Positions 1 through 64,000 of a stretch of 64,000 nucleotides of DNA are shown piece after piece; the first letter of the stretch is position 1, and the number at the start of each line of letters is the position of its first letter. The notes beneath the pieces were generated by a model. The model was not told where the DNA came from. It did not search any database and worked only from the letters and a program-made list of their open reading frames with translations. This DNA comes from Amoebophrya sp. A120 (taxonomy: Eukaryota > Protista > Dinoflagellata). Both the position numbers and the translations under genes were made by a program. Where the stretch lies: NCBI GenBank assembly GCA_905178155.1, contig CAJINV010000004.1, positions 8,894,411 through 8,958,410 on the forward strand, given 5' to 3'.

Positions 1-3000
1 GCCCCGGGCAAGTTCTGCTCGCGACGGCGGGGCCACCAACCCTTTCCGGTCCGAGTTTGGTGGTGTTTGAGTCGAATTCCGATGATGGGAGCACAACGTT
101 ACCCCCGACAACGACCACGACCACCACCACAACGTTGGAGTTCGCTTTTATCGGGGTCACCGCGCAGGACCGGACGTCGATTATTTTGCACAGCAATCCC
201 GATTTAGTCTTCATGAACATTGGCGGGAATGTCCGGGGGGAGGTGCATATTCGGGAAAACCCGGCGCTCCGCTCCATGTCGATGGACATGATGAACTCCA
301 TCCGGATGACGGTGTTCATTCACGACAATCCGGTACTGAACGGCATCAATTTCCCGGCTTTGACCGAAGTTTTGTCGACCGGGCTGCACTATCAAATGCA
401 AAAATGTCTGGGTCTGGAAACTTGTGATGCTGGGTGGCGTATCATGAGGAGGCCACAAGTGCTCGCTCAGCATGACAAGTTTCTGAGCTTCTAGATGTTG
501 CCTATTCTGCATGACAAACTGCGTTTCTACATGACAGAAAAATGGCGCTCTTGGGTAACGTGCATGACAGATTTGAGAGTCATGCCAGACAAGCATGACA
601 AACATGCACTCTTCCAGACCCAGACATTTTTACACTTGATATGCACTCTTTGGTCTTGCGGGATAACGGAATTGCCTGTACCTACTCCGGCTTCATGCGG
701 TTCCCGTCGTTGCAACGGATTTCCGGGATGGTGACGATCACGGGGAACCGGTGGTTTGGGGTCATCGAATTCCCCTCCCTGGTCGAAACGGGGCCCGTCC
801 CGTCGGACGGATACAGGCGGTTAGAGGATGGACATCAAAAAGCAGCGGTGGGGTCCGCAACTGAAACCATCAGTGAGCGGAGACAAGAACAGCACACGAC
901 GCCACCCAAGAGCAAAAACAAATCTTCGACCTCCAAGGTTGTAACTACTACCCGTGGTAGCAAAAATGTTGACCGACATAACCATCCCAACTCCCTCGAC
1001 AATCGTCGTGGCGGGCAGAAGGTGCCGGATTTGCTTTCTCCACCGGATTGGCGGTCCGGTTTGATGTCAGAGGGGGAAAAGGAGCAGCGCAGACTGATGT
1101 TTTCCGAAAGAGAAGAGCTGGAGCTGGAAAAACACGCTGCACTAGAACGCGAAAAGTGGGACGCAGAAATTGAAATAGCGGAAAATAATGAGAAACAGTT
1201 ATTTGGTGGTCGTGTCAGGCAACTCACCACCGGCACGCCCTACACCACCGGGAAAGTGTCCGTCAATTCCGTCACTATCACGGATAACCAGCGGTTGTAC
1301 TACGTGAAATACTCCGGGATTCTCTACGGCAGCATGCAGGTCTCCGCCCAGTCGGACTTGGTGAACATCGATTCGCCGGATCTGCGCGAAATCCGGGGCA
1401 TGCTGTGGATCGAGAACAACGCGCAACTCGCGAGGGTTTCTCTAGCGAATTTGCAAACGCTCGGCGACACCTTCGACTACAGCTTGAAATTTGTCAGTAA
1501 CGGGCAAGGCGCGCAGGAGCGGACCGGGTTTTTTCAAGCACATGTTTTACGGTCGACAACCCGTGGGATTGTGTTCGCGGAGAACCAAAACTTTGCGAGA
1601 TTGCAATTTCCGCAAATGCAATCGACGGGGGAGACTTTGGGCTCATCCGTTTTCGTTCAGAACAACAAGGACCTTTCCCTATTGGATTTCAACGGCGAGA
1701 TGGAGGGCAACGTGGTGATTCATAACAACCCAGATGTCGAATCCATCCGGTTGGAGGGTCTTGCGAAGGTCAAGAACGACGGGAATCTGTACTTCACGGA
1801 CAACCAAGCGCTTCACACGGCGAATTTGGTGCAGTTAGTGGAATTGACCGGTGATTTAGTCCTGGGTCGGAACGGCTTGCTCGCCCGCGCGCACGGATCG
1901 GTCACCGCGCCGTTGTTGAAATTAGTCGGAGGAAGGATTCGGATAGAACAAAATTTCAATTTGGGCAATTTAGTTTTTCCGCAATTAGATTCCATCGGGC
2001 AAGCGGAGGGGGAATCTGTGGGGGTTTTTCAGAACGTGAATTTCCAGTGCTGGAACATTCTCTTCAACGCGTTGAGATTCGTTGGCGGTTACATTCAGTA
2101 CAAGGACAATTTCATGCTGGACCAGATGGAGTTTGATTCCATGGGGAACTTATCAAGTGCAAAAATGTCTGGGTCTGGAAAGATCCGAACTTGTGATGCG
2201 ACTTCCACTACACGCGCAAATCTCTCATGCATAGGCAGCAAGCGGTGCCCATTTCCTGTCACCAAAAAGATGGCTTTGTCATGCGGATTAAGCATTGCGG
2301 AACGTTCTCAAAATCTGTGATGCTAGGGCTTCCATGACAGACCTTCTGTGTCATGCAGAAACAGCATGACAAAAATCTGCATTCTTCCAGACCCAGACAT
2401 TTTTACATTTGATAGAACTGCGGCCCGGCGCAGGCGGAGCTCGGGTCCTACTGCCCCTCCGCAAGATTCATTTGCGCGGCGCGGCATATCCTGAGTAAAA
2501 ACGTACCCACACCAGAGTTGTAATGCAAATCTGCATGCTTAAAATGTTTGTCATGCGGAGCCCCATGAGAAGCATTTTCTAAGGGTGTTTTGAAATTTGT
2601 CATGCTCCAATCAGCATGAGAGACTAGATCTGTAATGCTGCTGAACTAGCTCAAACAGCACTGCACTACGCGTCCAAATTTGTCATGCGAAACAAGTAAA
2701 GTTGGCCGATTTGTCTAGCAGATTTTCCATCTTGACTCTGGTGTGGGTACGTTTTTACTCAGGATACGGCAGGTGCGGTACCCGCCGTACGATCTCGGGA
2801 TTCCGGAGTTGAAGTTTTTGTCCCCTTTGGAGGTAACTCTGGAAGCGGACTTGACCGACCGGTTACTATACGGCGTGCCACTGTTGAACGACGACATGGC
2901 GCGGGTGTACGCGAAGTACTGCAAAGTGGACCCGATCCAGGTGAAAATTCTCTCCTACGCGATCACGAATCCAGCGTTAGTGCCAGGGAGTATCTCCGGT

Positions 3001-4500
3001 GCGGCGCAAACAACGGTCGCGCCAGGATCTAGTACGACACCGTCGAACGGAACTTCTTCTCTGCGGGAACTGCAACCCTACGACTACCCCAGCAACTACC
3101 CTGCAGTAGCTCTAAATGGTGACCAACGCAGCTCGCAGCTCAAAGGCCGCCAACTCGGTCAGGTCGCACGGTTGCTGGGCGTCCGGGTGGAAGTGATCAC
3201 AACTAGTTCGATCGAACTCCAACGGGTCTACAACCGGATCGCCAGTTTCAGTCCGGCGACGTTTGCGGATATGACCGCGGATTTAGTGATTGAGCTCGCG
3301 ACCCACATGAACACGCTACAAATCATCTCGGTGGGGCGAATCAACATCACCAGTACATTCGGCCTCGAAGGAATCACCCAGCCGCCGATCCCAGAGGGGA
3401 CGTACTTGGACACATCCGATATGGTGGATTTGACCAAAGCACGGGAACGACCTGTCGACCCGGCGGACGCGGGCGCAACGGCCGAGAAGGAGACGGACTA
3501 CACGTGGTTCATTGTAATTGGGTGTGTGGTTGCGTTCGGTTTGTTGGTTTTTCGGCTTTTCGTCTTCTTAACCATGCAGTCCGCTTTACAGGCGAATTTG
3601 TTGGAGCAGGAAAGGGAAAGAATCGAGAGGGAAGAACGGGAGAAATACGAGGAAGAATACTACGCCCAGAAGGAGATGGAAGCGAAAGCGAAGGACCACA
3701 TGCTCGTGCTGGGGTCGCAGTTGGTGATGAACAACGACGAAAAACGGGAAGACTTGGAGTTCGGCGCGACAATGGGTAGTTCCGCCGCGGAAATGCAGAT
3801 GCTGAGCCAGATGACAAGCAGTCCTTCGGCTTCGCATAGTAAGCACAAGATCGCGCCGATGGCAATTACCGACGGCTCGGCCGGTATGGAAGCGTCAGGT
3901 TTGAAATCGACAAAGTTGAAATAATTTGCCATGCATAAAATGCAACTCATAAAGTGCCTGTCTTGCAGAGTAGGCAAGCGAGGCAGACTGTAAGCCTGTG
4001 AAGGTGTAGAAATAGAGCTGCTAAACTAGCATGACAAAAGGCGTCTTCCTTACCCAAACAGCATTACAAACTGGATTTAGGCACCACCAAAATTTGTCAT
4101 GCGTCACTTGGAAACTGGGTTCCCACTGGCATCCATTTTATGCATGACAAATCATTTCAACTTTGGCGATTTCGATCCTGACACATCCATAGCCGGTTTT
4201 GATGGGAGTCCGACTGCGGCATCCGGGACGTTGGCGATTATGGACCGGTCGTTTATGCAGTCGACACAATCAAAAATGCCCCAGATCTTCCGTTACGACG
4301 ACGGATCCCGAGTCGCCCCAGTGGATTATGGCGACGGGATTGTCGTCGCGCCGGGCGTGCAGCCGTCGAAGCGGTACATTGGCGGGAAGGTGAAAATTAC
4401 GCACAAGAAAAAAACGACGCGGGGGAATCCGGAAGCGTACACGAATTTCCTGCGGGATAGGATTCACAACGCGGACGAAACAAATGTGTATGAAGTGTGA
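1..4500 (+). CDS. 5'-partial type I membrane protein with receptor L-domain-like (leucine-rich beta-helix) repeats; 4 introner introns
   Basis: ORFs 57-494, 641-2320, 2743-3924 and 4099-4500 join in frame after removing elements at 390, 2151, 2487 and 3885. Repeated motif I.G.L.I..N..L..l.fp.L. Single hydrophobic helix WFIVIGCVVAFGLLVFRLFVFL near 3505-3570. Confidence 0.75.
390..641. mobile_element. Introner family A (252 bp)
   Basis: TIR tatcaaatgcaaaaatgtctgggtctggaa / ttccagacccagacatttttacacttgata; TSD tgcac; excision gives ...TGLH|SLVLRDNG. Confidence 0.95.
2151..2414. mobile_element. Introner family A (264 bp)
   Basis: Family A TIRs; TSD gaact; excision gives MGN|CGPAQAE in frame. Confidence 0.95.
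2487..2766. mobile_element. Introner family B (280 bp)
   Basis: Perfect 32-bp TIR tatcctgagtaaaaacgtacccacaccagagt; TSD cggca; excision gives AAR|QVRYPP. Confidence 0.95.
3885..4191. mobile_element. Introner family D (307 bp)
   Basis: ~55-bp imperfect TIR tatggaagcgtcaggtttgaaatcgacaaagttgaaa...; TSD gccgg; excision gives GSAG|FDGSP. Confidence 0.9.
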
Positions 4501-5346: not shown

Positions 5347-8300
5347 ATGGATCCCCCCAAAAACGATTTTGTCTCTACAGAAACCACGCGCATTGCCGAC
5401 GAGGTGTTTGCTTCCGTCGACGCAGAGCTCGAGGCGATTACGGCGCAATTGCGAAAGTGGGGCACAACTTCCAAGAAATCTGTTTCAAAATCGCCCGCGG
5501 TTGGGACGCCGACGAGTACTGCGGGTACGAGTAGGCAGCAATTACGACGGGATATCAGTGCAACGAAGGTAGAATTGGAACAAAGAGAACAAGCTGCGGC
5601 GGAGGTGAAAAGTACAGAAAACGCTGGGACGAAAGGAAGTCCAGAGCTACAACCAGGAGGAACAGCTGGATCCTCGTCCCCACCGTTTCTGTTTTACAGC
5701 GATCCGACGCAGGTGCTGCTGAATACAAAAGGAGCTCCGGTGCTAGACGACGGGCTATTTGCTTCGCAGGCGGAGTGGTATGGCAATATGAATGTTTTTT
5801 TTTCTCATGCGGAAACAACTGAGATGTCATTGTGAGAATCAGAGACATTCACTTGCAATGCAAAATTTGAATTCCTAAAACTTTTATATGGCCTTCAATG
5901 CAAAAAGAAAAACAACTATGCAGGAAAACAAAGCAAGACTTGCGTCTCCATCCCAAAACCAAAAACCGTATCCAATTTCCCCCACGGGACGGGAGAACGC
6001 CGGCTCTGATTGAGCACGAGATCGAAAAGGACCTGAAGACCTGGCCCAAGGACTGGGTGAAGGAAGTGCCGAAGAAACGGAAATTCGTTTTGAAAAGATC
6101 TTCCTCCGAGCAACTGTTGCTGTCAGCTGCATCCGGCACTGCTTCTCGGATTGAAGCATCAACGCAACACCAGAGTCGTGGTCTCGAATCTGCCACGGCG
6201 AAAAGGCAGTATAGAAAGACCAGTACTGGAAAATCAAGAACGCAAAAATCCGCAACAGGGTTAACGCGTTTCCACGAGGTCGTGCAAGACTGGGCGAAAA
6301 CGCTACGCAGCCCGGTGCAACCCAGTACGGTGAAAGGAGTCACGCGGAGCAGGAGTGTGGGCGCATTAGGTAGTCGGGGGAAAACACCGGTGAGCTGTGT
6401 GGACGACGACGGGGACCTGCAGGAGAGAAGTGTGCAGGTGCAGGTAAAGAATGAAGCGGCAATAAAGCCTGAAACCACTTCCGCAGTGAGGGAACAAAAA
6501 GAAGACCACAACTCTTCCAGTGAAGACGAGAATGATGCTGCGGATCATGAAAATAAACGGGAAGTAAAAAATAACCCACGTAGTTTGCTCTACTACACCG
6601 AGGAGAATACCACTACGAACGGAAACGACGGGGCCGACGACCAAGAAACTGCCCAACCACCACAAGACCAGCTCGCACAGCAACTCCAAAACCTCCAAAC
6701 CTCCCGACCCTCCCTCAGCCCCCTATTCCGTCAAGACAGCGTCGCGGAGCTCGTTTTTCAAGACCAGGAGTCCACCAAACCGGACAAGAAGCTCTTCAAA
6801 GACGACCCCACGCACAACCCGCACCACACCGCGACGGAGCGCGGCGATCCGAAACTGCACTTCGCGACCACGTCGGAAATCGCGTACCGACAAGTCAGGT
6901 CCAGTCAGGAGTTCCAGGATCTGTTCCTAGATTTGACCCAATCCTGGCCGGAAAAGTCGCCGCAGTCGAGGACGAGGGAAGCGCGAACGGAGCGGATTTT
7001 GAAACGACAGAGCGAGAAACGACCGCTGAAGGCGTGTTTGTACGATTCTGGGGAGACCAGCTACACGGGAAAGTACCCGTATCGTGGCGGAGAGGGGTCG
7101 GATTGGCAAGTGCGGGAGTACAACGAGGCGTTGCTGGCGCAGAAGCGGCCGAGGGAGTTAAAGTTAAACAACCCTGCGGTCGGCGTTGTGGACGACGAGT
7201 GTCGGGCCAGTCGGTTTCAGGGAAAATTGTACGGGGTGAGGAGAAACAGTGGGGTGACGAGCAGGTATAGGTTTATGTGCACCATGACAGATCTGATGCT
7301 ACCTAGAATGCGGTTTTGAGCATGACAGAGTCGCTCCCAAAATTTATCTACATAATGGCGATTCTTATCAGGAGCCGTTCCCGGTCCCGGTCTCGCTCCA
7401 ACAGTCCCGCGAAACAGAAGTCGCAGAAACGGGTCGGCAGTTGGGAACGAGCCAGGCAGCAGGGGGGACAGCGAGAACGACTAGCATCCCCGTTGAAGAG
7501 CGTGCACTTTTACCCAGAAGACGCAGGATCGAGTTTGTACGAGGAAAGCGTAACGGATTCGCAGGTCTTCTTCGACGGTGGGATCATACGACCTGCGGAC
7601 GCAGCGGAAGTGGACAGACCCTCGACCAAAAAAATGCCGAATCGCGCAGGAGGCACCACGTACAGGCCTGGCAGTTCCGCCAGTGGTGGCCCTGCAGCGG
7701 ATCATCGCGACCAGCAGTTCATTCCCAGGAGCAGTCAACACCAGAACAAAGCAAGTAGTTCGAGCTCCAGTAGTACCGCAGCTGCCGCTCCGTTCCAAGT
7801 CCCGCCCGGCAAAGTTCTCGTGGATCAGTCGGTCTTGAAAACGATCAAGCAGGAAGTTGCGGGCCTGCAAAAGTCTTATCAAATGTAAAAATGTCTGGGT
7901 CTGGAAGAATGCAAGAGTTGTGATGCAGGTTTTCCATGACCGATGAGGTCTGGAATGCGAGACCCAGCATGACAGATTCCTTGAGGTCTCTATCATGCCT
8001 GTCCTGCATGAGAAACTCCCTCTCAACTTGGTCAAAAGCGGACAGCTTTTGGTACTCACGCAACACAGATTTTTGCATCATTCAGATTTAGCATGACAAG
8101 TTCTAATCTTCCAGACCCAGACATTTTTACATTTGATAAGTCTCTCTCTGACACGAAAGCGCAGATTCCGCAGCTGCAGAAACTGCTGCAGGACGAGCAA
8201 GCGAAAGTTGCTTCCCTGCAGCGACGGAAGCAGACGTCGACTGATTTGCAACGGTTGGAGAAGGTTTTGGCGGATCGGGAACAGAAGATCCGAGAATTGG

Positions 8301-9500: not shown

Positions 9501-11437
9501 ATGAAGCGCGCCGCGTCCTCCTCTTCCGCCGCTGGCGCCAAGCGCCAGAAGCAGGGCCCAACCGGGAGTGTCAAGCAGTCCTGCGCGGGGGTTACCCGCG
9601 GCTTCGCAGATGCTCTCAGAACGGGGAGTGAAAAGTACCCGGAGCACGGTGCCGACCCCCCAACGAAAGCAACGGTTTCTTCAACGAAGAAGCCTCTCCC
9701 GACCAGGAATGCGACGACAAAAGAACTCACGTTTGTTGATTTCCCGGAATTCAAGCCGAATCTGACGCCGGGGGAAGTCGTCTTAATGGGTTCCTTCGGC
9801 GGCACGTATTTTCGCGACATCCACTCTGCCGTCACGATATGCATTGCAAACGTATCGTACTCGTATAAATGCATTACAAATTTCCTCAGCATGAGAAATA
9901 AAATTTGTAATGCGGATTTACCTTAAAGAAAAATATTTGTAATGCAAGACTTGCATTTATACGAGTGCGATACTTTTGCACAGGATACACGAAGCAGGCG
10001 CACAAGGGAAAACAAGTCGCGGCGGAGTTTCCGCTGGAAAGTTGGGGCTGGAAAAGCGGAAAGGCGATTTCCTTGCCATCCGGTGTTATGCATTGCAAAT
10101 ATGTCTGGGTCTGGAAACTTGTAATGCTAAAAGTGAATGAGAGTTCCACTGCAATATGAAGGCAAGCATGACAAATTTTTGGGCTCCCGTGTGTTGCGTG
10201 TTCCGCATAGCAAATTGCGTTTTTGCTGGACAGGTAAGAGGACCACTTCGTGCCCATGCATCACAGATTCTTGAGTCATGTCAGACATGCAACCAAAGGA
10301 GAGCAGGATACAAGGGCGGAGCCGGGCGAGGACCGGGATGCGATGGGAGTGCGCGGATCTTATCAAAAAGGTACGGCCTAAGGCCTCGGGAACGCCGAAT
10401 ATAACCGCGCTCTTCTTCGTGAAACGCCCACCGCTTTTTGCGCGATGGATAAGAAAAAAAATCAAAAGAAAATCAAGAAAAATCAAAAGAAAAAAAATCA
10501 AAAAGAAAAAAATCAAAAGAAATCAAAGAAATAAAAAGAAAAAGAAAGAAAGAAAAACTGCAAATCCATGCGCAGAGAGTTCAGAAAAAAAAAAAAAAAA
10601 AAAAGACATGCATGACAAATGTAGCAATCTTCCAGACCCAGACATATTTGCGTTTGATAGGTGTAAACGTCTCGCCCGGGGTGAGTGTGAAACAAACGAA
10701 ATTTGACGCGGAGTTGATGCTGCACTCGGATACCTACAGGACGACTGTTAACAAGTAACTACTTGATGTTCTTGATTTGGTGGTTACGATTTTTTGTCAT
10801 GCGGTTTTTGAAACATATGTCGTTCCTGTGATGCGCGCAAATCAATGCACACGACGGGCGGGAAAAAAAAATCAATCACAGGTTCGGCGTCAAGTGCGGT
10901 GGCTCTCTCTACATGTGGGAAGGGCACGGGTGGATTAACGAGATCGACCCCTATGGCTGGTTTCACTGGTATTGCCGGTTTTACCAGGGGAGGAGAAGTA
11001 CCGACGACGCGAGGCAGGTCCAACGGTGGTTGAACTCCGCGGGGCCGAAGGGACGCTTCAAAAATCAGTTGATGAATAAGTGCCAAGCGGAGGGTATGAA
11101 TTGCAAAAATGTCTGGGTCTGGAAGATTGCAACTTGTCATGGTAAATCTGAAGCATGCAAAAATCTGTGTTGCGTGAGTACCAGAAGCTGTCCACTTTTG
11201 ATCAAGTTGAGAGGCAGTTTCTAATGCAGGATAGGCATGATAGTGATCTCACGGAATCTGTCGTGCTAGGTCCTCCAATACAGATCATATGGGTCATGGA
11301 AAACCTGCACGACAAGGCGAGCAAAGTTCCAGACCCAGACACTTTTGCATTTGATAGCCGGGAAATCAAAAACCGACCCGAGCGTGTCGCCCGTGATCAG
11401 GCAGACTCTGCAGCACTGGGCGCTGGAGATCAAGTAG
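9501..11437 (+). CDS. Conserved protein of unknown function (PNLTP-GSFGGTYFR / DPYGWF-WYCRFY-GRR family)
   Basis: Motifs FKPNLTPGEVVLMGSFGGTYFR, NKFGVKCG, WINEIDPYGWFHWYCRFYQGRRSTDDARQVQRW and VSPVIRQTLQHWA are rebuilt after removing 3 introners and 1 GT-AG intron. Confidence 0.8.
9838..9987. mobile_element. Introner family C (150 bp)
   Basis: TIR tatgcattgcaaacgtatcgtactcgtataaatgca / ...gatacttttgcacaggata; TSD cacga; frame restored (AVT|KQAH). Confidence 0.95.
10087..10659. mobile_element. Introner family A carrying a nested poly(A) retroposon
   Basis: Family A TIRs; TSD ggtgt; 573 bp, or 252 bp once the nested insert and its TSD are removed. Confidence 0.9.
10292..10603 (+). mobile_element. 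Non-LTR retroposon fragment (SINE or 5'-truncated LINE 3' end)
   Basis: 9-bp TSD agacatgca (10283-10291 and 10604-10612); A-rich aaaatcaaaag repeats; terminal run of about 20 A. Confidence 0.8.
10755..10881 (+). other. Canonical GT-AG intron
   Basis: gtaact...aatcacag; restores conserved NK|FGVKCG. Confidence 0.85.
11095..11356. mobile_element. Introner family A (262 bp), diverged TSD
   Basis: Family A TIRs; flanks gaggg/gccgg; removing element plus 5 nt restores the frame. Confidence 0.9.
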
Positions 11438-43800: not shown

Positions 43801-44791
43801 GTCACAAATCAGCTCTGTCATGCTAGAAGGGAAAAGATGCGGACTGTCGTGCTGGGTGGCGTGGGGAAGCCTTGCATCTTCAGGATGACAGGAAGCAGCT
43901 GGAAGTGGGAAACAGCATGACAAATTGCCTGCAAACGAGGCCACAACTGCGGCTCTTGGCCTTCTAGCATTACCAGGCGATTTGTGTACTCAAATACAGC
44001 ATCACAAATTTCGTTTTCGATATGGGGTGAGGGGATTTTCCCTTTTGATACCGAGGAGAAAAGGAGGATTGAATCCTCCGGCGGCGTCGTGCTCTTCGAC
44101 GGGTACTACAACCACCGGGTTTTCAAGCGCGGTACGGTGTACCCGGGGTTAAACATGTCCCGGGCGATGGGGGACGTGATTGGGAACCGCGAGGCGGGGA
44201 TCGTGGAGACGCCGGACTACAAAATCTTCGAGCTGACCTATTACAATGAAAAATGCCCCCTCCCCATATCAAAACGGAAATCTGTGATGCAGATTTGTGG
44301 TCACAAATCAGCTTTGTGATGCTAGAAGGCACAAGATGCGCACTGTAGTGCTGCCTAGCGTGGGAGTAAACCTATGCGTCTCCAGCATGACAGGAGACAA
44401 CTAGACGAGTGCGAAACAGCATGACAGATTACCTGCAATTTAGACCGCAGCTTCGTTTCTTGGCCTTCTAGCAATACAAGTCGACTTGTGTACTCAAATA
44501 CAGCATCACAAATTCGCGCATCTTCCGTTTCCGATATGGGGTGGGGGCTTTTTTCACTTTGATATGACCGACGAAGTGATCGCCTTTCTCGTGTGCTCCG
44601 ACGGCGTGTGGGAGTTCATCGACTGCCACGAGGCAGCCACGATTGTGCACAAGCACAAGGACAAAGAGACGGGGAAAATCAACTGCGAGAAGGCGGCCGA
44701 GGAGCTGTGCCGAGAAAGCTACCAGAGGTGGATGGACGACACTGGTGGGGAAATTTCGGACGACATCACCGCGATGATTCAAGTTCTATAA
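40804..44791 (+). CDS. PPM/PP2C-type protein phosphatase
   Basis: CKKGKKPESPNQD, VFDGHG, SGATAT, VAYCGDSRA, LTRDHKP, LNMSRAMGD, CSDGVWEF and DDIT motifs after removing 6 introners and 3 GT-AG introns (41034-41225, 42014-42188, 43407-43625). Confidence 0.93.
41321..41600. mobile_element. Introner family B (280 bp)
   Basis: TSD cgacc; same length as and similar to 2487-2766. Confidence 0.95.
41666..41927. mobile_element. Introner family A (262 bp)
   Basis: TSD gggaa; restores CKKG|KKPESPNQD. Confidence 0.95.
42014..42188 (+). other. Canonical GT-AG intron
   Basis: gtatat...atacag; restores the FD|GHG motif. Confidence 0.9.
42321..42582. mobile_element. Introner family A (262 bp)
   Basis: TSD gcaga; reverse-complement relative of 7877-8138. 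Confidence 0.95.
42633..43321. mobile_element. Introner family C with nested insertion (689 bp)
   Basis: TSD ttcgg; restores TS|GATAT; 150 bp once the nested insert and its TSD are removed. Confidence 0.92.
42672..43206. mobile_element. LTR-like insertion (TG...CA ends, 4-bp TSD)
   Basis: Flanked by catt/catt; begins tg and ends ca; contains a (gc)n run, a hairpin, and a PBS-like tggcgccgagca at 43098. Confidence 0.65.
43740..44050. mobile_element. Introner family E (311 bp)
   Basis: TSD ccgag; restores LPE|EKRRIE. Confidence 0.95.
44239..44564. mobile_element. Introner family E (326 bp)
   Basis: TSD tgacc; restores ELT|DEVIAFLVCSDG. Confidence 0.95.
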
Positions 44792-46662: not shown

Positions 46663-48670
46663 ATGTCCGCACCAGGAGAAGGCACTATCAGCATGGGCAA
46701 GACAAGCAAAGCGACGCGGCAGGGAGCAGCCGCGACGGGCGCCCCGCTCGTGACCGGCGCACCGCCCCCCCCCCCCCCCGTCCGCTCGACAGCACGTTTT
46801 GCTCCCACCGGGAAAGGCGTGTCGCCGGTGTCGCGCGAGGTGGACGACTACTGTGCGGGGGAAGTCGCCGCCGACTGTCCGCCTGTGGTCGGTCCGCAAG
46901 GGGATGTCGAAAGCGGATTTTTGGACAACAGCGACAAGAACCACGACGACGAAGACGATGTTCTTTCTGCCGCCACCGGCAAGGATGATGCTGCAAAGCT
47001 ACCGGGGGCGGACGCCGCGCGCTCTTCCTTCGTGTCCTACGACACCTTCCCGGCGAAACAGAAGCCGCACAGCAAAAGACTCTCAAAGCCGGCTTTGGCG
47101 AAGGTTTCGGCCATTACGGCGGAGCGTGCTTTCTTCGCTGGTGGCTTGGGCTCTCGTGCGTTTCTGTGGACGTCCTGCGCCTTAATGGGTTTGGTCTTGA
47201 TTCTGATGACCTTCGGCTGGGACACTGCAGGAGCAGGTAAGTATACTTTGCTGCATGAGATTTGTGCCTCAAGCTGATGAACAGCGACTGAGAGTTGTGT
47301 CTATACAGGATGCGAAATCGTAGTAGGAGTAGTTCTTCAAAGTCTTTTTATTCCACCTCCCTCGGGAGCGAAAGCGAATGCACGGCCAAAATTCAGCGTA
47401 TTTATGCAAGGGTGAAGAAGAGCCTGGGCTGCATCAGGAGCTCGCGCATGATCATGCGAACTTGAACTTCAAGGAAATCCTCGCGAAAAAAAAAAGCATG
47501 GAATCAATCGGAGATCTTCTTTTTCTTCTTTGTGAGCAGTCGGAGTGTAGAACATCTGGACGAGGATGTCAGCGTATTTTTTGAAAGTGAGGAAGTGTTG
47601 AAGTTAAAAACTAACCCCAACAGTTGACGCATGCTTCGGCTTCCTGCTGCCGTCTACGGTCTGGTCCGAGACGCTCTGGACGCGGGGCCGATGGCGTCGC
47701 GGACGCATCCCTCCGCTATCCAATGCAAACTTGTCTTGATATGGAAGATGAAAACAAACTGTTGCAGACCCACACACTTGCCATGTAGTTTTTGCACCTG
47801 CGAAGACGTCTGGAGTGCACGCGGAGCGAGCATGACAAATTCCGCGCAGGCTTCTCCATGCCTACACCGCATGAGGAGTCGGCCTCTCTCGCTGGGAAAC
47901 AAATTTTTCTGGGGTCCATATCTTCGAGGCAGCTCAGTAGATTGCTCTTCCTGCTGGTGCTGCCTGAGGTTCTGCCAGAATCAGGCTCATAACAGATTTG
48001 CGTCCTCTTTTTCCGGAAACAGACATATTTGCAACTCATGACCGTGAAAGCGAAACAATGGGCAACTGTGGCAGAGAGAACTGCATTCTCGCAAGCGGGA
48101 GCAGCAAACGCCACCGAAGCCGCGTCGCCGTCGTCCTTCATTTTTACCGGAAAACAGCAGGTGCGAGATCCATTCCACTCATACGGGTGGGAGAAAGAGG
48201 AGCTGCTCTGCAAAAACGTAAAGCGGCAAGCGGAAAGAGAAGAGTGCGAAAAGCCCCTTATGTCAATTTATAACGACCACGACCAGATTGGACGCACGAT
48301 CCCGATTGGGGCCTGCTGGTGGAACGACTCCAAATTGGGTCCCTTTCAAATGGGAACCCCAGGGTGTCTGTTGGATGCAGACCATCTGCAAGAAGGTGAC
48401 CAAACCGGCTGGGAGAGCCAGTGTTTGCGTCACAGCTTTTACAACCCGGGCGCAAACGACATCTGCCAAAAGGGAGAGCTGAAGTGGTGCGAGTGGCAGG
48501 GAGCGGAGATTAAGTTGCCCCACGACGATCATCAGTCCGAACAACGATCGTGCATCGGCTACGACCGCGGCTGCTGCGTTCCGCGAGGCAGCAAGGCCGC
48601 GGGAATCGGGTGGAAGTTCAGCCCCTTCAAAACCACCAGTCGCGAGATCGTGGCAACGATCTTCTACTGA
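46663..48670 (+). CDS. Hypothetical type II membrane protein with Cys-rich C-terminal domain; middle exons uncertain
   Basis: ORF 46663 with TM FLWTSCALMGLVLILMTFG and gtaagt donor at 47237; exon ~47635-47716 joins ORF 48029 after introner removal. Confidence 0.55.
47717..48040. mobile_element. Diverged introner family A (324 bp)
   Basis: tatccaatgcaaacttgtct...agacatatttgcaactcatg; flanks tccgc/accgt; frame restored (HPS|AKAKQW). Confidence 0.75.
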
Positions 48671-51142: not shown

Positions 51143-53592
51143 ATGATGCTCCTCACGTTTCTGCGGAGCCTGGCGCCCTGTGGCGATGACGATACATGCG
51201 CGTCGTTCTCGTTTGGGCGAAGCAAGGCTGGGTCGAAGGAATACAACGATGGCAGCGATGAAAAAGAAGGTGTCGGGGCTGCAGGTGGCACTAATGTCGG
51301 CACGACCACCAGCCCCGAAGTCGTGGTTGCTTTCAACCGCCGTCCTACCGCCCCGAGCGAGCGCAATGCCACGCTGCGACAATCAAATGAGATACTCGCC
51401 GGGAGATCTATCCAGGAAGTTCTGCGGCGGCGCTGCCTCGAATACATCTACGCACGAGAATATCGTGAGAAAAAAGTGTTTCACTGTAAGGCTTTTGCAG
51501 GTTTTGCATCACAAGTTTGTTCTACATGACAGAGAAAATTTGCCATGCCAGGTTCCTAAGGGAAAACACAGCTAAAAATCCACTGTCTTGCATGTGTAGC
51601 AAGACAAATACTTCTGTGTTCAATTTTATGCATCACAAGTTTACAGTGAAACAGTTTTTTCTTGCGATAGAAAACTGGACTGGTTCCCACCTGATGTCGC
51701 GGAGAAGATGCAGGAGATAATATTGAAAGGAAAAACTCCCCCTCCCCATATCGAAAAGGCATGTTTCCGAAAATTTGTGTTGCTGATTTGAGGTCACAAA
51801 TCACATTTGTCTTGCAAGAAGACAAGTGCAAAAGCTTCGCCCCTTTTATGGAAGCGATTTGTCATGCTGTTGGGCCTAAAGGGCAGCCGTTTGCCATGCT
51901 GAGCAACTAGGCCGATACGCCCCTGCATAGCCTGGGGATCTGGTCGCAATGCCTTCCTGCAATACAAAGCTGATTTGTGTACACAAATCCAGCATCAGAA
52001 ATTTCGTTTTGATATGGGGAGGGGGGATTTTTCCTCTCGATAGATAAGCATGGTTAGAAGTACAGCAGAGGAAAATCTTAATCTTCAAAATAATGCCGAC
52101 GCAAAGGAGCTTGGTGTTTCATCTGTTATTTCCCCCGGCGACCCCGATATCGAATGGCTGAAGGTGGCCACGACAAAAACACTGTCCCGGACGAATTCTG
52201 GAAATGTGCAATTAGAGGATTCCGAATCGTGGATCGACTCCTTTCACCTCCGTTACGAGATCGACGAAATTGAGTCTCTGGTGATGCAGCTTCTCAAAGG
52301 TGTTCGTGTTGAGCCGGAAGATGGTCCGAACGCTTTGTGCGAGGTCTTAAACGAGCTGCAGTGCCTGCCGAGAGTCGCGCCCGGGCTGGTGAAGAAAGAC
52401 TGCGCGGAATTTGGCAGTTGGATGTCCGCGGATGCGGTCACCGTGAAGCAAAACGGCTTAAGATTGCTGTTGTTCGAATGCTTACCGCTGGCAACTCGTG
52501 TACAACAATACGTTCAGTCTTCCGCTTCGAGGACACTACTGGGCCAAGAGCGGGCGGGGATTGAGCGGGAGCTCTGGTACCAGCGGGGACGGAATGAGAG
52601 GCTGGTATCGGCAGGGAAAGAGCATGTCCGGCCGGAGCAGCTCGTAGCGCCGATAACTAGTAGACAGGAAGAAGGCGGTAAGAACGCCTTGAAAGATGAG
52701 GATGGCCAGAGCTTGAAGGGATCACTTTACCTGGAGAAGTATGCAGAAATGCTCGTTTCGTCTTACTCCTTTTTGACGGATGCCTCGCTCGGGGAGATCT
52801 TTGGTGCTCTGAACAAAGTTGTCCAAGAACAAAGTAGCGGCCACCATAATTACCGAGAAGCGCATGTACCTAAGCATCTCGATGCCGCCCTTGCCAGCTA
52901 CGTTTTGGAAGTCTGGCGCGAGTTTTCTGCTCTCCCCCCAGACCTTCAGGGAGACGGAGTTCATCTCTCGGGCTCGAACCACCTTGGTGCAGTAGTTGTG
53001 CAGAACACATACCGCAAAAAGATTCTGGAACGTCATTGGTGGGAGAAGGAAGGCCCGGAGTTGCGGTCAAAGATACTTCATCTTGATAAAGACCAGAAAA
53101 ACTACCCCTCGCTCACAGAGGCTTTTCGGCGCATTGAGGGTCTGGAAAGGGGTTTAACCATCGAGCAGAGGGCCCAACAGCAGGTGAACAGATTGCTACG
53201 GGAACATGGGGACCAAGAACAGAATATGAACTGCAAAAGCATCGTATTCGTATAAATGCATTACAAATTTCTTCAGCACGAGAAATAAAATTTGTAGTAA
53301 TGCGGATTTGCCTTAAGAAAAAGATTTGCATTTGTAATGCATGACTGCAATTACCACAAGTACGATACTTTTGCACAGGATACAGAAACTGCTCGTCGAC
53401 CTCTCATCTACTTCAGGACCGGAAATAAACGAGGTTGAGGCGCAGAGGAGGAAAAAAGCCTTTCAGCAGCTGCAACTGCAGTGGCATCCCGACAAGGAGC
53501 CAGATCCGGAGAAGAGGAAAATCGCGACCGCCGTGTTTCAATTACTCCAAGACGAAAAGCCACGGTTTCTTGGCGAAATAAACTGTTCATAA
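51143..53592 (+). CDS. Protein with C-terminal J (DnaJ) domain; true start uncertain
   Basis: RKKAFQQLQLQWHPDK..ATAVFQLL; exons join in frame across introners 51461, 51721 and 53225. Confidence 0.75.
51461..51669. mobile_element. Introner family F (209 bp)
   Basis: TIR tatcgtgagaaaaaagtgtttcactgtaa; TSD gagaa/gaaaa; same length as the copy at 29956. Confidence 0.92.
51721..52042. mobile_element. Introner family E (322 bp)
   Basis: TSD gataa; frame restored (QEI|SMVRS). Confidence 0.95.
53225..53382. mobile_element. Introner family C (158 bp)
   Basis: TSD cagaa; frame restored (EQ|KLLVDL). Confidence 0.95.
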
Positions 53593-54010
53593 GCTGCAAG
53601 AAGTGAGTTCATCAAGTACAATGCGTGTTTGTGATATTCACAAAAACATTTGTAAAAGCTTGAAATTCGGGTACAGTAAGTAACACAAGCAACAGCTGCC
53701 CGAGCGAGCGACAGCTTCGGCCCTAGCCGCATGAAAAACAGGTAAGTGTTCGTGCGAACTGGCGAGAAATACAAGGTTCTTGCTCTTCATTCTGCAGGTA
53801 AGAAAACGATCAAACCTTCGCACAGCATCAGAAACACTACGGCAGTACGGCGCTTTGTTTCTAGGCCCATACAGCCTTCAAGAAAAATATGGGATCTAAG
53901 AATCAATAAAAGTGTTGCACTAGTAGTAACTAACTACAAAAACACTACAATCTTGTCCAGCAAGTTGTAGACGGCGAAACCACAAGCATCAATCTCACTG
54001 CTTTGCTAAA

Positions 54011-57000
54011 ATGGCGCACCGAAAAACAAAGAGGAGAAAACCTTTACCATGTTCCGTGACAGCCGCCACGATCTCCACTGCAGCTGCATTAGCGCTCCTC
54101 GCGAGAGTTGTTCTGTCCGAAAAGCCTTTTGTTCTTTCCTCCCAGAACCAAAACTGGTTTCCCGATCACGACTGCAGAAATTCGGAGAAATGGAACCACT
54201 GGCGGGAACAAATCCGCGACCAGCCCACGTGGCTGCGGCCGGAGAACACGAAGGTGCAAGCGGGAATTGTGGACTTCTACTTGAAGCAAAATCCATCTGG
54301 ACAAGACCAGGCGTACAACAGCGACCCGGCGGACCCAAGTGCTCTCCTCCCCCACGAAGGGAAGATGTATGAGGATTGTTATCTCGGCGCCCTCTACTCC
54401 GGCCTGATCGTCATGCTGACCTGCTGGCTGCGACAAGACTCGTGCTACTTTGAGAACGAGCAGAAACTGCAGAGAATGTTCCCGCCTTTAAGAGTCCTGA
54501 TCGGGACGGAGTGGCCGATATTGGAGACGTTGGCGGAGACAGATTGGTCCGCGAGTCCGAGCGCAAAGGATCTGCAAGTGACCTGCGATTTTCCCACAGA
54601 GAAAAAACCGCTCGTGGACTGGACACGGTTCAAGGAAGTATAGAAAATGGTACTTCTTCTTCTAGTTCTATCTTCTTCTGTAGTACCTGCGTCGTGAAGG
54701 CTGTTCTTGGTGTTGGCTTCTGGAATTTCAATTTCAGTGCACCGCGTGTGCATGTGGTGCATGAGAAGTGTTGCTGTGTACTAGCAGGGCAGTCATTTTA
54801 CATCACAAATTCTTTCTAGGTTTTCACGACCTCGCCAAATTCCTGGTTCGACTACGCCGTGAAAATCGCCTACGGGAAAGAGCTGGAACAAAACACCCAA
54901 GTAGCCATCGCCGAATGCCCCCTTGGGTTCCTGACCGCGAACATTGTGAAAGCGTTGCTCTGCGCGAACACGGAGTCCGTGTGTTTCCCCGCCCACGCCG
55001 GCGCAGTGGATCAGGTGATGGAGAACTTGAGCTTCCACGCCCTGTTCGGGGGTACCTGGCCCATTGGCACTCTGCTGGTGCATTTACGACGGCAGGTAAA
55101 AAGGCATGGGTACATGTTATCAAAGGGAAAAATCCCCCCTCCCCATATCGAAACGAAGTTTCTGATGCTGGATTTGCGTACACAAATCAGGTCTGTCTTG
55201 CTGGAGAGGACTGCAGGCATATGCCAAGCCTGGGCCGAGAGGTTTTGACGTAGGGGACTAGCATGACAGACGTCGGCCCTGTAAGCCCAACAGCATCACA
55301 AACCGCCGGCATAATGCGGCGGACTCTCTGGCTTTGCCTTCTTGCAAGACAGACAGGATTTGCGACCTCAAATCTGCATCACAAATTTTTAGACGGATGC
55401 GTTTTCAATATGGGGAGGGGGGATTTTTCCTTTCAATACATGTTGGGGTTTTCCGAGAAAGAACTGGCGGATCAGTTCTACAACGATGAACATGTAGAAG
55501 TGGACAATACTAAAGTTCGTGATGACACAGACACCAGCGTCGGCGATTTGGGTCCATCTTCATCTTCTGGCAGGATACATGCAGTCACCACGCTTTTTGG
55601 CGCTGCATCTACTAGTTCGAGATCAAGCAGAACAGCTGCACGACTACCAACAGAAAATTGGTGGTGCAGGAGGAGTGGTGGGGAAGCAGATTTGATGTTT
55701 TCTGCAGCGCCAGAATTTCAAGGTTTTGAATTCCGGATCTCCGCCTTTTCCCCAACCATGCAGAACTTTTTAACCTTGGTCGCGAAACGCAAGCTCTGCG
55801 CCGTGACCTGGGACATACGAGATAGCATCGTTTTGACCACGATGGTGTACGGGAAAAAATTCCACAAGTACATCACCCCCTTCCTCCAGCGCGTCGACGC
55901 GGTGGGAGTGAAATTCTTCGTCCTGTGGTGCTTAGACGAAGAAGCGCTGTTGCAATGCGAAAGGACGACAGCTGCATTGACGCCTTCAACATCTTCGTCC
56001 ACGCGGATGGAGGCAAGCCCTGGCGAGTGGTTTGAGCAGAGCAACATGTGGGAGCTGTACGGGGTGAAAAAGCCAGACGGAGAAGGCGGGACGACCAGGG
56101 GCAGCTCGGAGAGGAACTACTACGAGGACCCTAGCAACAGAAAAATTTTCTGCGTCCGCGGATTCACCAAAGGAATTCTGAACAAGTTTTCCCTGCCGTT
56201 GGTCTTGCTGAATTATAAGCTGCACGTTTTGTGGGTGGATTTCGACACGTTTCTGTTCCGAAATCCAGTGGAGGAGGTGGTAAAGCAGATCGGTGAAATG
56301 GCGTTGCGGGAGGATATTCTTGAAGAAGCAGAAGAGGTGGAGCAGCAGGGCACCAGTACTGGTGGGTCTGGAAGAACAGGAGCACCTGCGAGTTTGCCCG
56401 ATCAACCGGATAAACTACACGAACTGTCACACGAGCCCCCAGGAGCGGCTGAGCGTGCCGCCATTTTCGAAAATTTTCCCTTCGACTTCATCACAGAAGA
56501 TGAAAAGGACCACGAAGCGTATTGGAAGAAACTACATCGCAATGGTGGAATAATAAATACCGACATGGAACAACAACAAGGTCAAGCGCCGTCTGATGCA
56601 AAAATTGATATAGCACAAAAATCCGAAAGCGAAACCCCAGCAACTCCCGACCTTCTTCTCTCCGGCAGTTTCTCCACCGAGTGCATCAACTCTGGTGTCA
56701 TTTTCTTCCGCTCGCGACCGAACGTCCGCCGGTGGCTTCTTGAGGTTCTAAAATGGATGTACGATCACCCCTACGAACACGATCAGAAGTGTGTTTCCGC
56801 GTTTCTCGGTGCGGGGGAGCGGGTCGCGTTCCCGCACGAAATGCCACAGGTGTTGTTTGAAGACGATAATTTAATATTTCGAGCGGCGTCGAGGACGAGT
56901 GCGAGTGGAGGTGGACTACGACGAGATGGCACGACAGCTGCTGGTGGTCGTGCGACCTCCAAAAATGACGCCGGCACGAGGACACAGCATGAAGTCGTTC

Positions 57001-57961: not shown

Positions 57962-60011
57962 ATGTCCGTTCTTCACGACGAAATGAACCCACCAGCGCCA
58001 ACCGCTGCTGCTAACGACGCCGATGGGAAGAAGAACAAGTTTTCCGCCCAAGATAAAACCTCCGGGAATTATGGGCAGCAGCTGCACGAGGACAACTTCG
58101 ATAGTGCGAAAGTGGTGAAGCGGTTAAATATGAGAACCACGATTGTGTACGTGTCGAAAAAACCGAAGTACCTTGGTGGGGTCGCGTACCATCTGAAAGA
58201 AGAGGACTGGGACTACAACCAGCACGGTGTCTGGACGGATTTCGGCCACGGCGTGACCAGTTTCCCGAAGAAGGACAAGCCGGACCACACGATCAGCGTT
58301 TTTGATTTGCTGCAAGCGATTGAAGAAGCCTGCAAGAAATGCGAAGACAGCTTGGAGCAAGTGACCCAGCTCCACGACCAACCGGCGCTGCTGCAAACCG
58401 ACCCGGAATTTTCCATCGAGGATATGCATTGCAAAAGTATCGTACTAGTAGAAATTAATAGCATTACAAATTTTTCCAGAAGGAAAAATGGAACTTGTAA
58501 TGCTGAATAAGCTAAGGAACCAGATTTGTCATGCATGACTGCAATTACTACGAGTACGATGCTTTTGCACAGGATAGAGGAGGTTCGGAAACGAAAACGG
58601 GAGATTCAGGACGTCTGCCTGTACGCGTTTGACCGGTTGAGGTATGGACGGTTGTTGGTGGAGACGCTGGAGTTTATCTTGAAAAAGCACGCGGACCAGA
58701 AAGAGGAGTTTGAAACGTTGCAGGAAAAGGGGGAGGAGTGCGGGAGAGTGATTAGCGGGTACAAAATGGAGATATTGGAATTGGATAAAGCGCTGAAGGA
58801 GGTACAGGTGGCGCAATACGACGAAATACTGCAGATTCATGGTATCTATTTGTGTATTTCTATTCATACATAAGGTCATGCTTTGTTGTTTGTTGTTCTG
58901 TCTTTTCAGTGACCGGATAGAAATTTCATCTCGATGACGAGAAAACAGGATGCATTGATTTTTTATACCTGCATATAAATAGTTGACAAAATAAAGACAA
59001 AAACAACTCTGGATCATATCAGAACGGAAATCCGACTGGCTGTGCCCCGTCTGTGCCTACCGCAACTACCAAAGGAACAAAGTTTGCCGCGAGTGCATGA
59101 AGCACGGGCGGACAGTGTATAATAACTGCACCGCCCCGGGGCCGCAGGAGGACGAGAATCTTCAAGAGAAGAGAGCTGCGGGTGCACATTATCGGGATGA
59201 ACAATTACCGACGATTCACGAAGAAGAAGAGGAACATGATCTTTGTGAGCAGAAGGACGTGGACGTCGCGCAGAAGGACGAGCTCCACATGGAATCGCAG
59301 CAAGAGGTTCTACTTCTAGATGCGGTCGTCCAGGACAATTTACACGAAGATGATGAACATAATTCGAAGCAACCAGACGAGGAGCAGAAGTCCAACATCA
59401 AGGCGGCAATATTAAAGCAACAAGAAGAAGATGAATTCGACGTCGCAGGGACGAGCCGCGAGAAAAAAGTCCCGAATTATTGTTCTACGACGGGGGCAAG
59501 TAGTACAAGCCCCGCCTGGGTACTACGACAACTACAGGCTCCTCACTCGGGACGAGACAACTCCTCGTCGTCCACTGCTACCCCGGCTGAGACGGCCAAG
59601 AAGGAGAATGATCCGGTGGAGATGAACAGAAAACCGTTCGGCATGAAGAGGCTGGGTGGTTTACTCCCGTTCCTCAGCAAGGCTGCGTCGATCCAAGCAG
59701 CACCAGTAAAGACAGATGACCTCGTCCAATGTGGCACTGTTTCTCTTTCCAGAAATGCAGGAGGAGGAAGCACCAGCAGCCGTAGTAGTAGAGCACCGCT
59801 GGATCATAGGAATGATACTGAAAATGAAGCAGTCTCCAAGCACCCGGATAAAAGTTTTTCAAAGCCTGGGTTCATTCGCATCGACGGGCGGTGGTACCCG
59901 GATTTTTATACGGGTTCAAGGGATGAACAGCCGAGAAATACTACGGAGAACAACAAGGTCGAGAATAATTACCGGAAAAGCGGAAGCTCAAGCTCTTCCT
60001 TAAAAGTGTAA
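57962..60011 (+). CDS. Coiled-coil and RanBP2-type zinc-finger protein (5' part; probably continues at 61111-62382)
   Basis: After introner 58423 and GT-AG intron 58842-59022: DWLCPVCAYRNYQRNKVCREC fits W-x-C-x2-C-x3-N-x6-C-x2-C. Confidence 0.75.
58423..58576. mobile_element. Introner family C (154 bp)
   Basis: TSD gagga; frame restored (SIE|EVRKR). Confidence 0.95.
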
Positions 60012-63056: not shown

Positions 63057-64000
63057 ATGGCCACCACAAACGTACAAGGCCCCCCCAAAGGTGCCCCCGC
63101 TGGTGCCCCCAGTGAACAATCTACGACCACCTCTGTCGAGCTCTTCGTGAGGGTTTGTGAAAAAAAAGAGGTCCAAGACTGGTACTACCCCGACGACGAA
63201 CGGTCCGCCGAGTGGAACGAGGAGCACGAAAAGATCGAGAAACAGATCAAAAAGCAGTTCGAAAGGCTCGGGTGCGAGATCACACAGTACAAACGGGAGT
63301 TGAATCACGCCGGGAATGAGTTCGCGACCGTGTCCTTCGAAAAAGAGGAAGACCAGGAATTTTTCCTCATGGCCTGCAAGCGCGAGCATTTTCGGAGCAA
63401 ACTCTCGCCCAACCCGTATCCTGTGCAAAATAAGTATCGTACTCATATAAATGCAAGTCTTGCATTACAAATCTTGTTCTCAAGGCAAATCCGCATTACA
63501 AATTTCATTTCTCATGCTGAGAAAATTTGTAATGCATTTATACGAGTACGATAACGATACTCATACTTTTGCAATGCATAACCCGGACTACACGTCGATC
63601 TGCGTTTTCGGAAAACACCACCACATCACCGAGGCGGTGCGGACCTTGCGGGTGGCGAAGGAGAAAGCGATGTCTGCGGTTTGGTTTCTCCAGGAAGAAA
63701 CGACCCTTCATAACCAACCGTCCGACGCTGTCATTGTGGAGGAGGAAAGGGGGGACGCGGAATACCGGCAGCGGGTCTTGCGCGCGGCCATAGATCACGC
63801 GAGGAAAAAGGTGGACGAGGCTGTTGAGAACAACGGGAAGGACTTTATTCCGCAACCGGTGGCGGACCACCTCGCAAAGGAGATTAAGGTTGCGCAAGCG
63901 ACTTACCAACAGAATCGGTTGTTGATTATCGATCTGGAAAAAGTAGTAGCTCCGGCAGAGGTGGAGGAAAAAGCCGAGGGAGGAGCGGCTCCAGGTACTG
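63057..64000 (+). CDS. 3'-partial hypothetical protein, possible degenerate RRM-like N-terminal domain
   Basis: ATG at 63057; VELFVRV...EFATVSFEKEED; frame stays open to the window end after removing introner 63417. Confidence 0.6.
63417..63580. mobile_element. Introner family C, reverse orientation (164 bp)
   Basis: TSD acccg; frame restored (SPNP|DYTSIC). Confidence 0.95.

What the first reader, a model, noticed from the sequence alone, without database searches (positions are those of the whole stretch)
390..63580. 41 TIR/5-bp-TSD elements act as non-GT-AG introns in apparently functional genes
Seen: 41 elements of 112-370 bp (longer when nested), nearly all TAT...ATA, have TIRs and a 5-bp direct repeat. 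Removing the element plus one repeat copy restores the frame every time, often in the middle of a motif (PP2C CKKG|KKPESPNQD, GH6 NTSN|Y). For most (e.g. TSDs tgcac, cggca, gccgg, acccg), no junction position within the TSD gives GT...AG. Known: non-canonical introner elements with inverted and direct repeats are reported in Amoebophrya spp.; to my knowledge how they are excised is unresolved. Inference: an RNA-level (or programmed DNA-level) excision system recognises the TIR hairpin and TSD rather than standard splice signals.
Basis: partly seen in the sequence, partly recalled or inferred. Interest (0 to 1): 0.92.

Follow-up and report, generated by a model that had tools for sequence, protein, structure and literature searches.

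The report
Known introners with a fixed cut
These are the already described jumping-element introns of the marine parasite Amoebophrya A120, which are missing from transcript assemblies although they lack normal splice signals; the new detail is that the cut falls inside the duplicated target site, likely always one base before and four bases after the element, and is likely made by a loosened spliceosome.

Summary
I find 39 TAT…ATA elements with 5-bp direct repeats (29 exact; 0-1 in shuffles). A window exon is 100% identical to a protein labelled Amoebophrya sp. A120, and the elements fit the A120 introners of Farhat et al. 2021 (PMC7789003). RNA-like contigs skip element+5 nt at all 22 joints listed, none placeable as GT-AG; a DNA-like run keeps the elements.

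New here: repeats whose two copies differ reveal the cut. Seven RNA-covered cases leave only offset 3 or 4 into the repeat. A Rab gene on another contig points to 4 (protein evidence, one case). The intron is then N-TAT…ATA-NNNN. The paper calls these splice sites variable or unknown; seven literature searches found no fixed register.

Offset 4 puts U and A at intron positions +2/+3, as in the GT-AG introns here, while first and last bases are free. Best reading: a relaxed spliceosome (~0.5). Main rival: a Euglena-like separate machinery (~0.3). DNA excision is unlikely. The scan noted a similar single element in another dinoflagellate earlier (not checked).

The parts
390..641 (+). introner, exact 5-bp repeat
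   Evidence: inside 1124-aa frame; not RNA-tested
2151..2414 (+). introner, exact repeat
   Evidence: not RNA-tested
2487..2766 (+). introner, exact repeat, 30/30 TIR
   Evidence: not RNA-tested
3885..4191 (+). introner, exact repeat, singleton family
   Evidence: not RNA-tested
7877..8138 (+). introner, exact repeat, reverse orientation within its family
   Evidence: not RNA-tested
9838..9987 (+). introner, exact repeat
   Evidence: not RNA-tested
10087..10659 (+). introner with nested A-tailed insert
   Evidence: not RNA-tested
11095..11356 (+). introner, repeat mismatched at positions 2 and 3
   Evidence: not RNA-tested
21664..21925 (+). introner in ABC1 kinase gene
   Evidence: RNA-like contig pieces
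22865..23020 (+). introner in ABC1 kinase gene
   Evidence: joint not listed
25152..25422 (+). introner, GH6 gene 5' part
   Evidence: joint not listed
25460..25609 (+). introner, repeat mismatch at position 1
   Evidence: joint not listed
25674..25935 (+). introner, exact repeat
   Evidence: joint not listed
26212..26386 (+). ordinary GT-AG intron in GH6 gene
26501..26612 (+). introner ending ATG, mismatch at position 2: offset 2-5
26690..26822 (+). introner, exact repeat
26881..27148 (+). introner, mismatch at position 5: offset 0-4
27821..28415 (+). introner with nested insert, mismatch at position 1: offset 1-5
28465..28680 (+). introner splitting the GH6 INTSN-Y motif
28864..29128 (+). 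introner, exact repeat
29217..29532 (+). introner, mismatch at position 1
   Evidence: public A120 model implies offset 1 or more; joint not listed
29590..29858 (+). introner starting TAC
29956..30164 (+). introner, exact repeat
30237..30504 (+). introner, exact repeat
30568..30809 (+). introner, mismatch at position 3: offset 3-5
33287..33441 (+). introner, exact repeat
   Evidence: joint not listed
35369..35632 (+). introner in CLC channel gene, mismatch at position 1: offset 1-5
   Evidence: RNA-like contig pieces
41321..41600 (+). introner in PP2C gene
41666..41927 (+). introner splitting the PP2C CKKG-KKPESPNQD stretch
42014..42188 (+). ordinary GT-AG intron in PP2C gene
42321..42582 (+). 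introner in PP2C gene
42633..43321 (+). introner with ~540-bp nested insert, still skipped exactly
43407..43625 (+). ordinary GT-AG intron carrying element-type internal motifs
43740..44050 (+). introner in PP2C gene
44239..44564 (+). introner in PP2C gene
47237..47623 (+). ordinary GT-AG intron
47717..48040 (+). decayed introner ending ATG, mismatches at positions 1 and 5: offset 1-4; frame unresolved
51461..51669 (+). introner, mismatch at position 3: offset 3-5
51721..52042 (+). introner, exact repeat
53225..53382 (+). introner in gene with weak DnaJ match
55118..55438 (+). introner, exact repeat
   Evidence: not RNA-tested
58423..58576 (+). introner, exact repeat
   Evidence: not RNA-tested
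63417..63580 (+). introner, exact repeat, reverse orientation within its family
   Evidence: not RNA-tested
24973..31007 (+). GH6 glycoside hydrolase gene: 14 introners and 1 GT-AG intron, 738-aa open frame
41203..44788 (+). PP2C-like phosphatase gene: 6 introners and 2 GT-AG introns, 344-aa open frame
   Evidence: last exon PF00481 at E 0.001, just under cut-off

Best explanation
These are Amoebophrya A120 introners, small transposon-like insertions with a 5-bp target duplication that RNA-like contigs skip at element plus 5 nt with the cut 3 or 4 bases into the duplication, likely always 4, and likely made by a relaxed U2-type spliceosome. Shown: the anatomy, the skip length, the lack of GT-AG, and offsets limited to 3 or 4 if one register holds. 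Inferred from one protein-level case: offset 4, so the intron is N-TAT…ATA-NNNN. Inferred: a transposase elsewhere inserts the element in either orientation; because both ends read TAT inwards, the transcript always offers U+2, A+3, U+4, which would act as a donor read by U6/Prp8 without U1. The acceptor would be set by distance from the 3' TIR (hairpin or nearby branch A), not by AG, so one repeat's worth of bases leaves with the intron and the original coding sequence is restored wherever the element lands. My odds: RNA-level removal 0.95, fixed offset 4 about 0.8, spliceosomal chemistry given both about 0.6-0.65.
For: 22 of 22 listed joints skip element+5; four GT-AG introns are skipped too, three of them in the same contigs as elements. 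Seven RNA-covered mismatched repeats give ranges 2-5, 0-4, 1-5, 3-5, 1-5, 1-4, 3-5, overlapping only at 3-4. In locus L054 (Rab gene) the repeat differs at position 4: offset 4 or more gives Ala, offset 3 gives Asp; 5 of 5 homologues have Ala, including the A120-labelled protein identical over the queried exon. The four RNA-shown GT-AG introns and one in L054 all have A at +3, and 2 of 5 have U at +4. All 9 top non-canonical classes in A120 start N-T, and all 9 in A25 start TT where the repeat starts TTA (Table S4), so both strains would keep U+2/A+3 with different repeats. Offset 4 puts 11 of 39 window and 32 of 157 other elements in those classes against 0-5 and 0-15 for other offsets. Weak AG excess at the predicted acceptor: 19 of 196 against 6.1% in flanks, one-sided p 0.033. 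83 of 89 spliceosomal proteins and U2, U4, U5, U6 are reported in A120, U1 not found. U+4 is favoured when U6 A43 is unmethylated (passage). Both orientations occur: 41:61, 22:22, 10:10.
Against: Offset 4 over 3 rests on one locus from another assembly and on protein, not reads; the other position-4 cases were synonymous or of uncertain frame, and one (L060) had no homologue. Table S4 and the class test can reflect aligner preference inside the repeat: published A120 families include GC and GA donors (21 and 23 of 331 in fam12) and 24-34% AG acceptors in the larger families seen, which a fixed offset 4 does not predict. All 16 first/last base pairs occur (n 196, chi-square p 0.079), although normal 3' site docking needs G-G and A-A pairs (passage). 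The predicted hairpin would bury the donor (terminal triplet paired in 30 of 39). No branch motif is enriched on the sense strand. [quoted passage not shown] Runs X1-X4 are guessed RNA, contigs only, 2 samples of 1 study. Splicing in both orientations rests on frames, since within each family the RNA-shown copies share one orientation (one five-copy family was not scored).
Confidence: 0.5

Rival explanations
1. A separate, Euglena-like machinery removes them from RNA. It reads the paired TAT/ATA ends and cuts at fixed spacers (1 nt before, 4 nt after), as Euglena introns use CAG/CTG with 3-nt and 5-nt spacers, releasing circular or linear RNA.
For: Same architecture: paired triplets at fixed distance from both cuts, free terminal bases, direct repeats (PMC12501133 passages; PMC11282704 section 6). 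First and last bases are free; TIR cores pair in 39 of 39 predicted folds; the two 3' ends that changed to ATG keep a U-G pair and are spliced; U1 not found.
Against: No G-U over A-C excess in stems (77:75). The triplet coincides with donor positions +2/+3 in both A120 and A25. The Euglena motif and spacers differ. GT-N and N-AG hybrids are common at offset 4 (8 and 4 of 39), although this is near chance level.
Confidence: 0.3
2. Removal is from RNA but the register is offset 3, or varies between elements; the apparent single register comes from few cases.
For: RNA alone cannot separate 3 from 4 (no position-4 mismatch among 39). The original paper calls the sites variable. Published family calls are inconsistent.
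Against: Eight informative cases without a conflict; L054 excludes offset 3 unless a conserved Ala became Asp; published boundaries inside a perfect repeat cannot be resolved by alignment.
Confidence: 0.15
3. Elements are excised from DNA at some life stage (programmed excision), so transcripts never contain them.
For: Only one DNA-like run was laid, as contigs that drop rare forms, and its joints were not all counted.
Against: X5 covers the stretch, with its long pieces at depth 22-31 running from exon into element, and has depth 0 at every listed exon-exon joint. The skipping contigs also lose GT-AG introns and have no cover over 45441-46302. Both retained and skipped contigs exist at 47717.
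Confidence: 0.03

Closest known systems
Introner elements / non-canonical introns of Amoebophrya sp. A120 (Farhat et al. 2021, PMC7789003)
   Same: Same organism label; inverted repeats starting TAT, seven variable bases, then three or more A; 3-5 nt direct repeats; RNA-supported non-GT-AG introns.
   Different: The paper reports splice sites as variable with unknown border position; here mismatched repeats fix them at offset 3-4, likely 4. I saw text, legends and supplementary tables, not the figures.
A120 introner families in Gozashti et al. 2025 (PMC12130899)
   Same: TIR DNA elements of about 150-320 bp that co-opt splice sites from the target duplication.
   Different: Automated calls give 2-5 bp duplications and mixed mechanisms; no single register in the 21 of 58 A120 rows I saw.
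Nonconventional introns of Euglena (PMC12501133)
   Same: Paired short motifs at fixed spacers from both cuts, free ends, direct repeats, probable transposon origin.
   Different: CAG/CTG with 3 and 5 nt spacers against TAT/ATA with 1 and 4; circular excision product reported there, untested here.
Non-canonical introns of Fritillaria borealis (PMC13326754, PMC11282704)
   Same: TIR/TSD-derived introns without GT-AG handled by a modified U2 spliceosome; U6 m6A loss proposed.
   Different: Fritillaria has preferred ends (AG-AC, AG-AT), keeps U1 and has duplicated U2AF; here all end pairs occur and U1 was not found.
MITE-type introners of Micromonas and Aureococcus (via PMC11282704, PMC9860276)
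   Same: Non-autonomous TIR elements whose duplication is removed by splicing.
   Different: Those keep canonical splice sites and so need suitable target sequence; these insert into near-neutral sequence.

Membership tests
Amoebophrya A120 introner elements | Host is A120 | tested here: met
   GH6 exon 100% identical to an A120-labelled protein; 583 of 583 residues after splicing
Amoebophrya A120 introner elements | Inverted repeat starts TAT, seven variable nt, then AAA | tested here: met
   TAT in 38 of 39; A at positions 11-13 in 36, 36, 38 of 39; definition
Amoebophrya A120 introner elements | 3-5 nt direct repeat at the borders | tested here: met
   5 nt; 29 of 39 exact; 158 of 197 elsewhere
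Amoebophrya A120 introner elements | Repeated families | tested here: met
   Five multi-copy groups in the window; families of 102, 44, 20 and 5 among 196
Amoebophrya A120 introner elements | Removed from transcripts with non-GT-AG ends | tested here: met
   22 of 22 listed joints; runs are guessed RNA
U2-type spliceosomal introns | GT (or GC) donor and AG acceptor | tested here: not met
   0 of 22 joints allow GT-AG; only U+2/A+3 are kept at offset 4
U2-type spliceosomal introns | Branch-point motif near the 3' end | tested here: inconclusive
   No sense-strand excess of five motifs among 196
U2-type spliceosomal introns | Lariat product and U2/U5/U6 dependence | not testable with these tools
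   No raw reads of this strain (X9 laid 4 reads); no genome held; no Rfam hit in window
Euglena-type nonconventional introns | CAG at +4 to +6 and CTG at -8 to -6 | tested here: not met
   Ends are TAT and ATA
Euglena-type nonconventional introns | Paired ends at fixed spacers from the cuts | tested here: inconclusive
   Fixed spacers likely 1 and 4; pairing predicted but no RNA-specific selection signal
Euglena-type nonconventional introns | Circular excised RNA | not testable with these tools
   Needs raw or RNase R reads
MITE (non-autonomous TIR DNA transposon) | TIR, constant target duplication, short, no coding capacity | tested here: met
MITE (non-autonomous TIR DNA transposon) | Cognate transposase with the same ends | not testable with these tools
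   No genome held; Farhat et al. found none in A120

The most novel reading that the evidence does not exclude
Amoebophrya A120 has a second, exact splice code, N-TAT…ATA-NNNN, run by a U1-less spliceosome that has dropped recognition of the first and last intron bases and measures the acceptor from the transposon's own end. Any 5-bp-duplicating element with TAT ends would then be a perfect intron at any site and in either orientation, which would explain the roughly 30,000 copies.
Probability: 0.45. Interest if true: 0.8.

Novelty: already known. Interest (0 to 1): 0.5.

Why it matters
The elements and their non-canonical splicing were published in 2021, so the finding as written is a rediscovery. 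How they are cut is still open in every paper I read. A fixed register turns an apparently random set of borders into one rule, would correct tens of thousands of annotated borders, and gives sharp tests: lariat or circle, where the branch lies, and whether U6 is unmethylated at A43. If spliceosomal, it would be a natural spliceosome working without the first/last-base pairing thought to dock the 3' splice site.

Tried and rejected
No whole genome was held, so snRNA, METTL16 and transposase searches were not possible. The run search listed no holder on record as RNA; X1-X4 are guesses. Rfam scan of the window: 0 hits. A second position-4 test (L060, Asp or Glu) failed: no homologue in two searches. 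Repeat composition did not single out a register: G at position 5 in 46 of 157. G-U against A-C test: null. Branch-motif strand test: null. Cryptic GT-AG use was rejected (0 of 22). A cut exactly at either TIR edge was rejected: offset 0 by 6 of 7 and offset 5 by 2 of 7 informative joints. Further GT-AG introns seen by eye were not verified, so donor statistics rest on five introns. The script stopped at its last step; that check was redone. Dropped rows: 14 of 197 outside elements with more than 2 repeat mismatches (or short flanks), and 26 more with weak strand calls, leaving 157. Roy et al. 2023 (Curr Biol) was not read; figures of PMC7789003 and files 13-14 of the PMC12130899 supplement were not seen and could hold register information.


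Full report
Observation. A scan for inverted ends flanked by an exact 5-bp repeat gave 36 hits against 1-5 in three shuffles; restricted to TA…TA ends it gave 29 against 0, 0 and 1. Three hold nested inserts. The ends are TAT in 38 of 39 and ATA in 37 of 39, with an A-run at positions 11-13. A codon model trained on + strand frames puts all 39 host frames on the + strand. After removal all 39 lie in open frames of 90 aa or more, among them a 738-aa GH6, a 344-aa PP2C-like, a 771-aa ABC1 kinase and a 674-aa CLC channel. The per-element control is weaker: element+5 was strictly best in 27 of 39, tied in 3, not best in 9; at 47717 the upstream frame stops at the joint.

Identity. A GH6 exon is 100% identical to a protein labelled Amoebophrya sp. 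A120, and my spliced model matches it at 583 of 583 aligned residues; the public model's first ~116 residues differ from mine. Farhat et al. 2021 (PMC7789003; passages, sections 10-12 and supplement passages seen, figures not) report that over 60% of A120 introns are non-canonical, with inverted repeats starting TAT, seven variable bases and three or more A, 3-5 nt direct repeats, 29,850 repeated copies, and no U1 found. The elements are therefore already known.

RNA or DNA. The run search listed no holder on record as RNA. I laid 21000-36200 and 40700-53600, which hold 28 of the 39 elements. Contigs of X1-X4 (guessed RNA, 2 samples, 1 study) show 22 of the 28 joints; the other 6 were not listed in a truncated table. 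All 22 skip element+5, and none can be placed as GT-AG. They also skip four GT-AG introns and leave 45441-46302 uncovered, as spliced RNA would. X5 covers the whole stretch, its long pieces run from exons into elements, and it has depth 0 at every listed exon-exon joint, though not all its joints were counted. Programmed DNA excision is unlikely.

Where the cut falls. In a perfect repeat the cut can slide, but where the two copies differ the transcript shows which base is kept. Call k the number of upstream-copy bases kept. Seven RNA-covered elements give k of 2-5, 0-4, 1-5, 3-5, 1-5, 1-4 and 3-5: only 3 or 4 fits all. No window element differs at position 4, so I fetched more copies: 174 loci of one other assembly held 197 elements, 158 with exact 5-bp repeats. 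Eight differ at position 4; five are synonymous in the likeliest frame or of uncertain frame, one had weak flanks, and two change a residue. L060 had no homologue. L054 is a Rab gene whose exon is 100% identical to an A120-labelled protein: k of 4 or more gives Ala, k of 3 gives Asp, and 5 of 5 homologues have Ala. With one register, k is 4 and the intron is N-TAT…ATA-NNNN. This last step rests on one protein-level case.

Mechanism. At k of 4 the TIR supplies U+2, A+3 and U+4. The five verified GT-AG introns all have A+3 and two have U+4. Table S4 of the paper lists nine top non-canonical classes in A120, all starting N-T, and nine in A25, all starting TT where the repeats start TTA: two unrelated repeat sets would both keep U+2/A+3. 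k of 4 puts 11 of 39 and 32 of 157 elements in the A120 classes, more than any other k, but aligners slide inside repeats, and the published family table shows GC and GA donors and many AG acceptors that fixed k of 4 does not predict (21 of 58 A120 rows seen). U+4 faces U6 A43 and is favoured when that base is unmethylated (PMC13326754 passages). Against a normal spliceosome: the 3' site is usually docked by G-G and A-A pairs (PMC11585973 passages), yet all 16 first/last pairs occur here, with only a weak AG excess (19 of 196 against 6.1%, p 0.033, not corrected for codon phase). No branch motif is strand-enriched, and G-U and A-C stem mismatches are 77 to 75, so a need for an RNA hairpin is not shown, although TIR cores pair in all 39 predicted folds. 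Families occur in both orientations. I put a relaxed spliceosome at about 0.5.

Rivals. Euglena introns use paired CAG/CTG with 3-nt and 5-nt spacers, an unknown machinery and circular products (PMC12501133 passages; PMC11282704 passages and section 6). The layout here is the same in kind, so this rival gets 0.3; the motif test for membership fails. A register of 3 or a variable one gets 0.15, DNA excision 0.03.

Novelty. Seven searches and passages of PMC12130899, PMC9860276, PMC12005148, PMC11453091 and PMC12787238 showed no fixed register or resolved mechanism for A120; the legend of Farhat's Fig. 3 calls the sites variable and the borders unknown. Subscription papers and figures were not available. 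Verdict: already known elements, with a new and testable detail on where they are cut; interest 0.5.

Noticed in passing
window 10087-10659: Introner holds a ~320-bp insert ending in a long A-run with a short flanking repeat, like a retroposed sequence inside the element (read by eye).
   Followed up: no
window 27821-28415 and 42633-43321: Nested inserts of ~300 and ~540 bp; the first looks multicopy (many variant contigs). Both host elements are still skipped exactly, so the interior does not set the cut.
   Followed up: partly
window 46633-48667: The two RNA-shown joints put a stop at the 47717 junction in the upstream frame while another frame runs on; contigs retaining each intron also exist. 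Unexplained: assembly error, missed exon or decaying gene.
   Followed up: partly
window 24973-31007: GH6 cellulase-family gene with a Pro/Thr-rich linker in a parasite of dinoflagellates, many of which have cellulose plates (host wall chemistry recalled); a role in host entry is a guess.
   Followed up: partly
window, all elements; also 43407-43625: A 7-8 nt internal motif in both orientations: 123 of 134 hits lie in 38 elements, and four more in one GT-AG intron, which may be a decayed introner. Candidate transposase-binding site.
   Followed up: partly
window ~53905-55050 and ~60020-61110: Near-identical partial gene duplication, seen by eye.
   Followed up: no
window 11868-11929: Small 62-bp inverted repeat with TA ends outside the introner families, apparently between genes.
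   Followed up: no
window 26212-26386 and 47237-47623: Both GT-AG introns have a branch-like A ten bases from the 3' end (read by eye), hinting at a short branch-to-acceptor distance in this organism.
   Followed up: no
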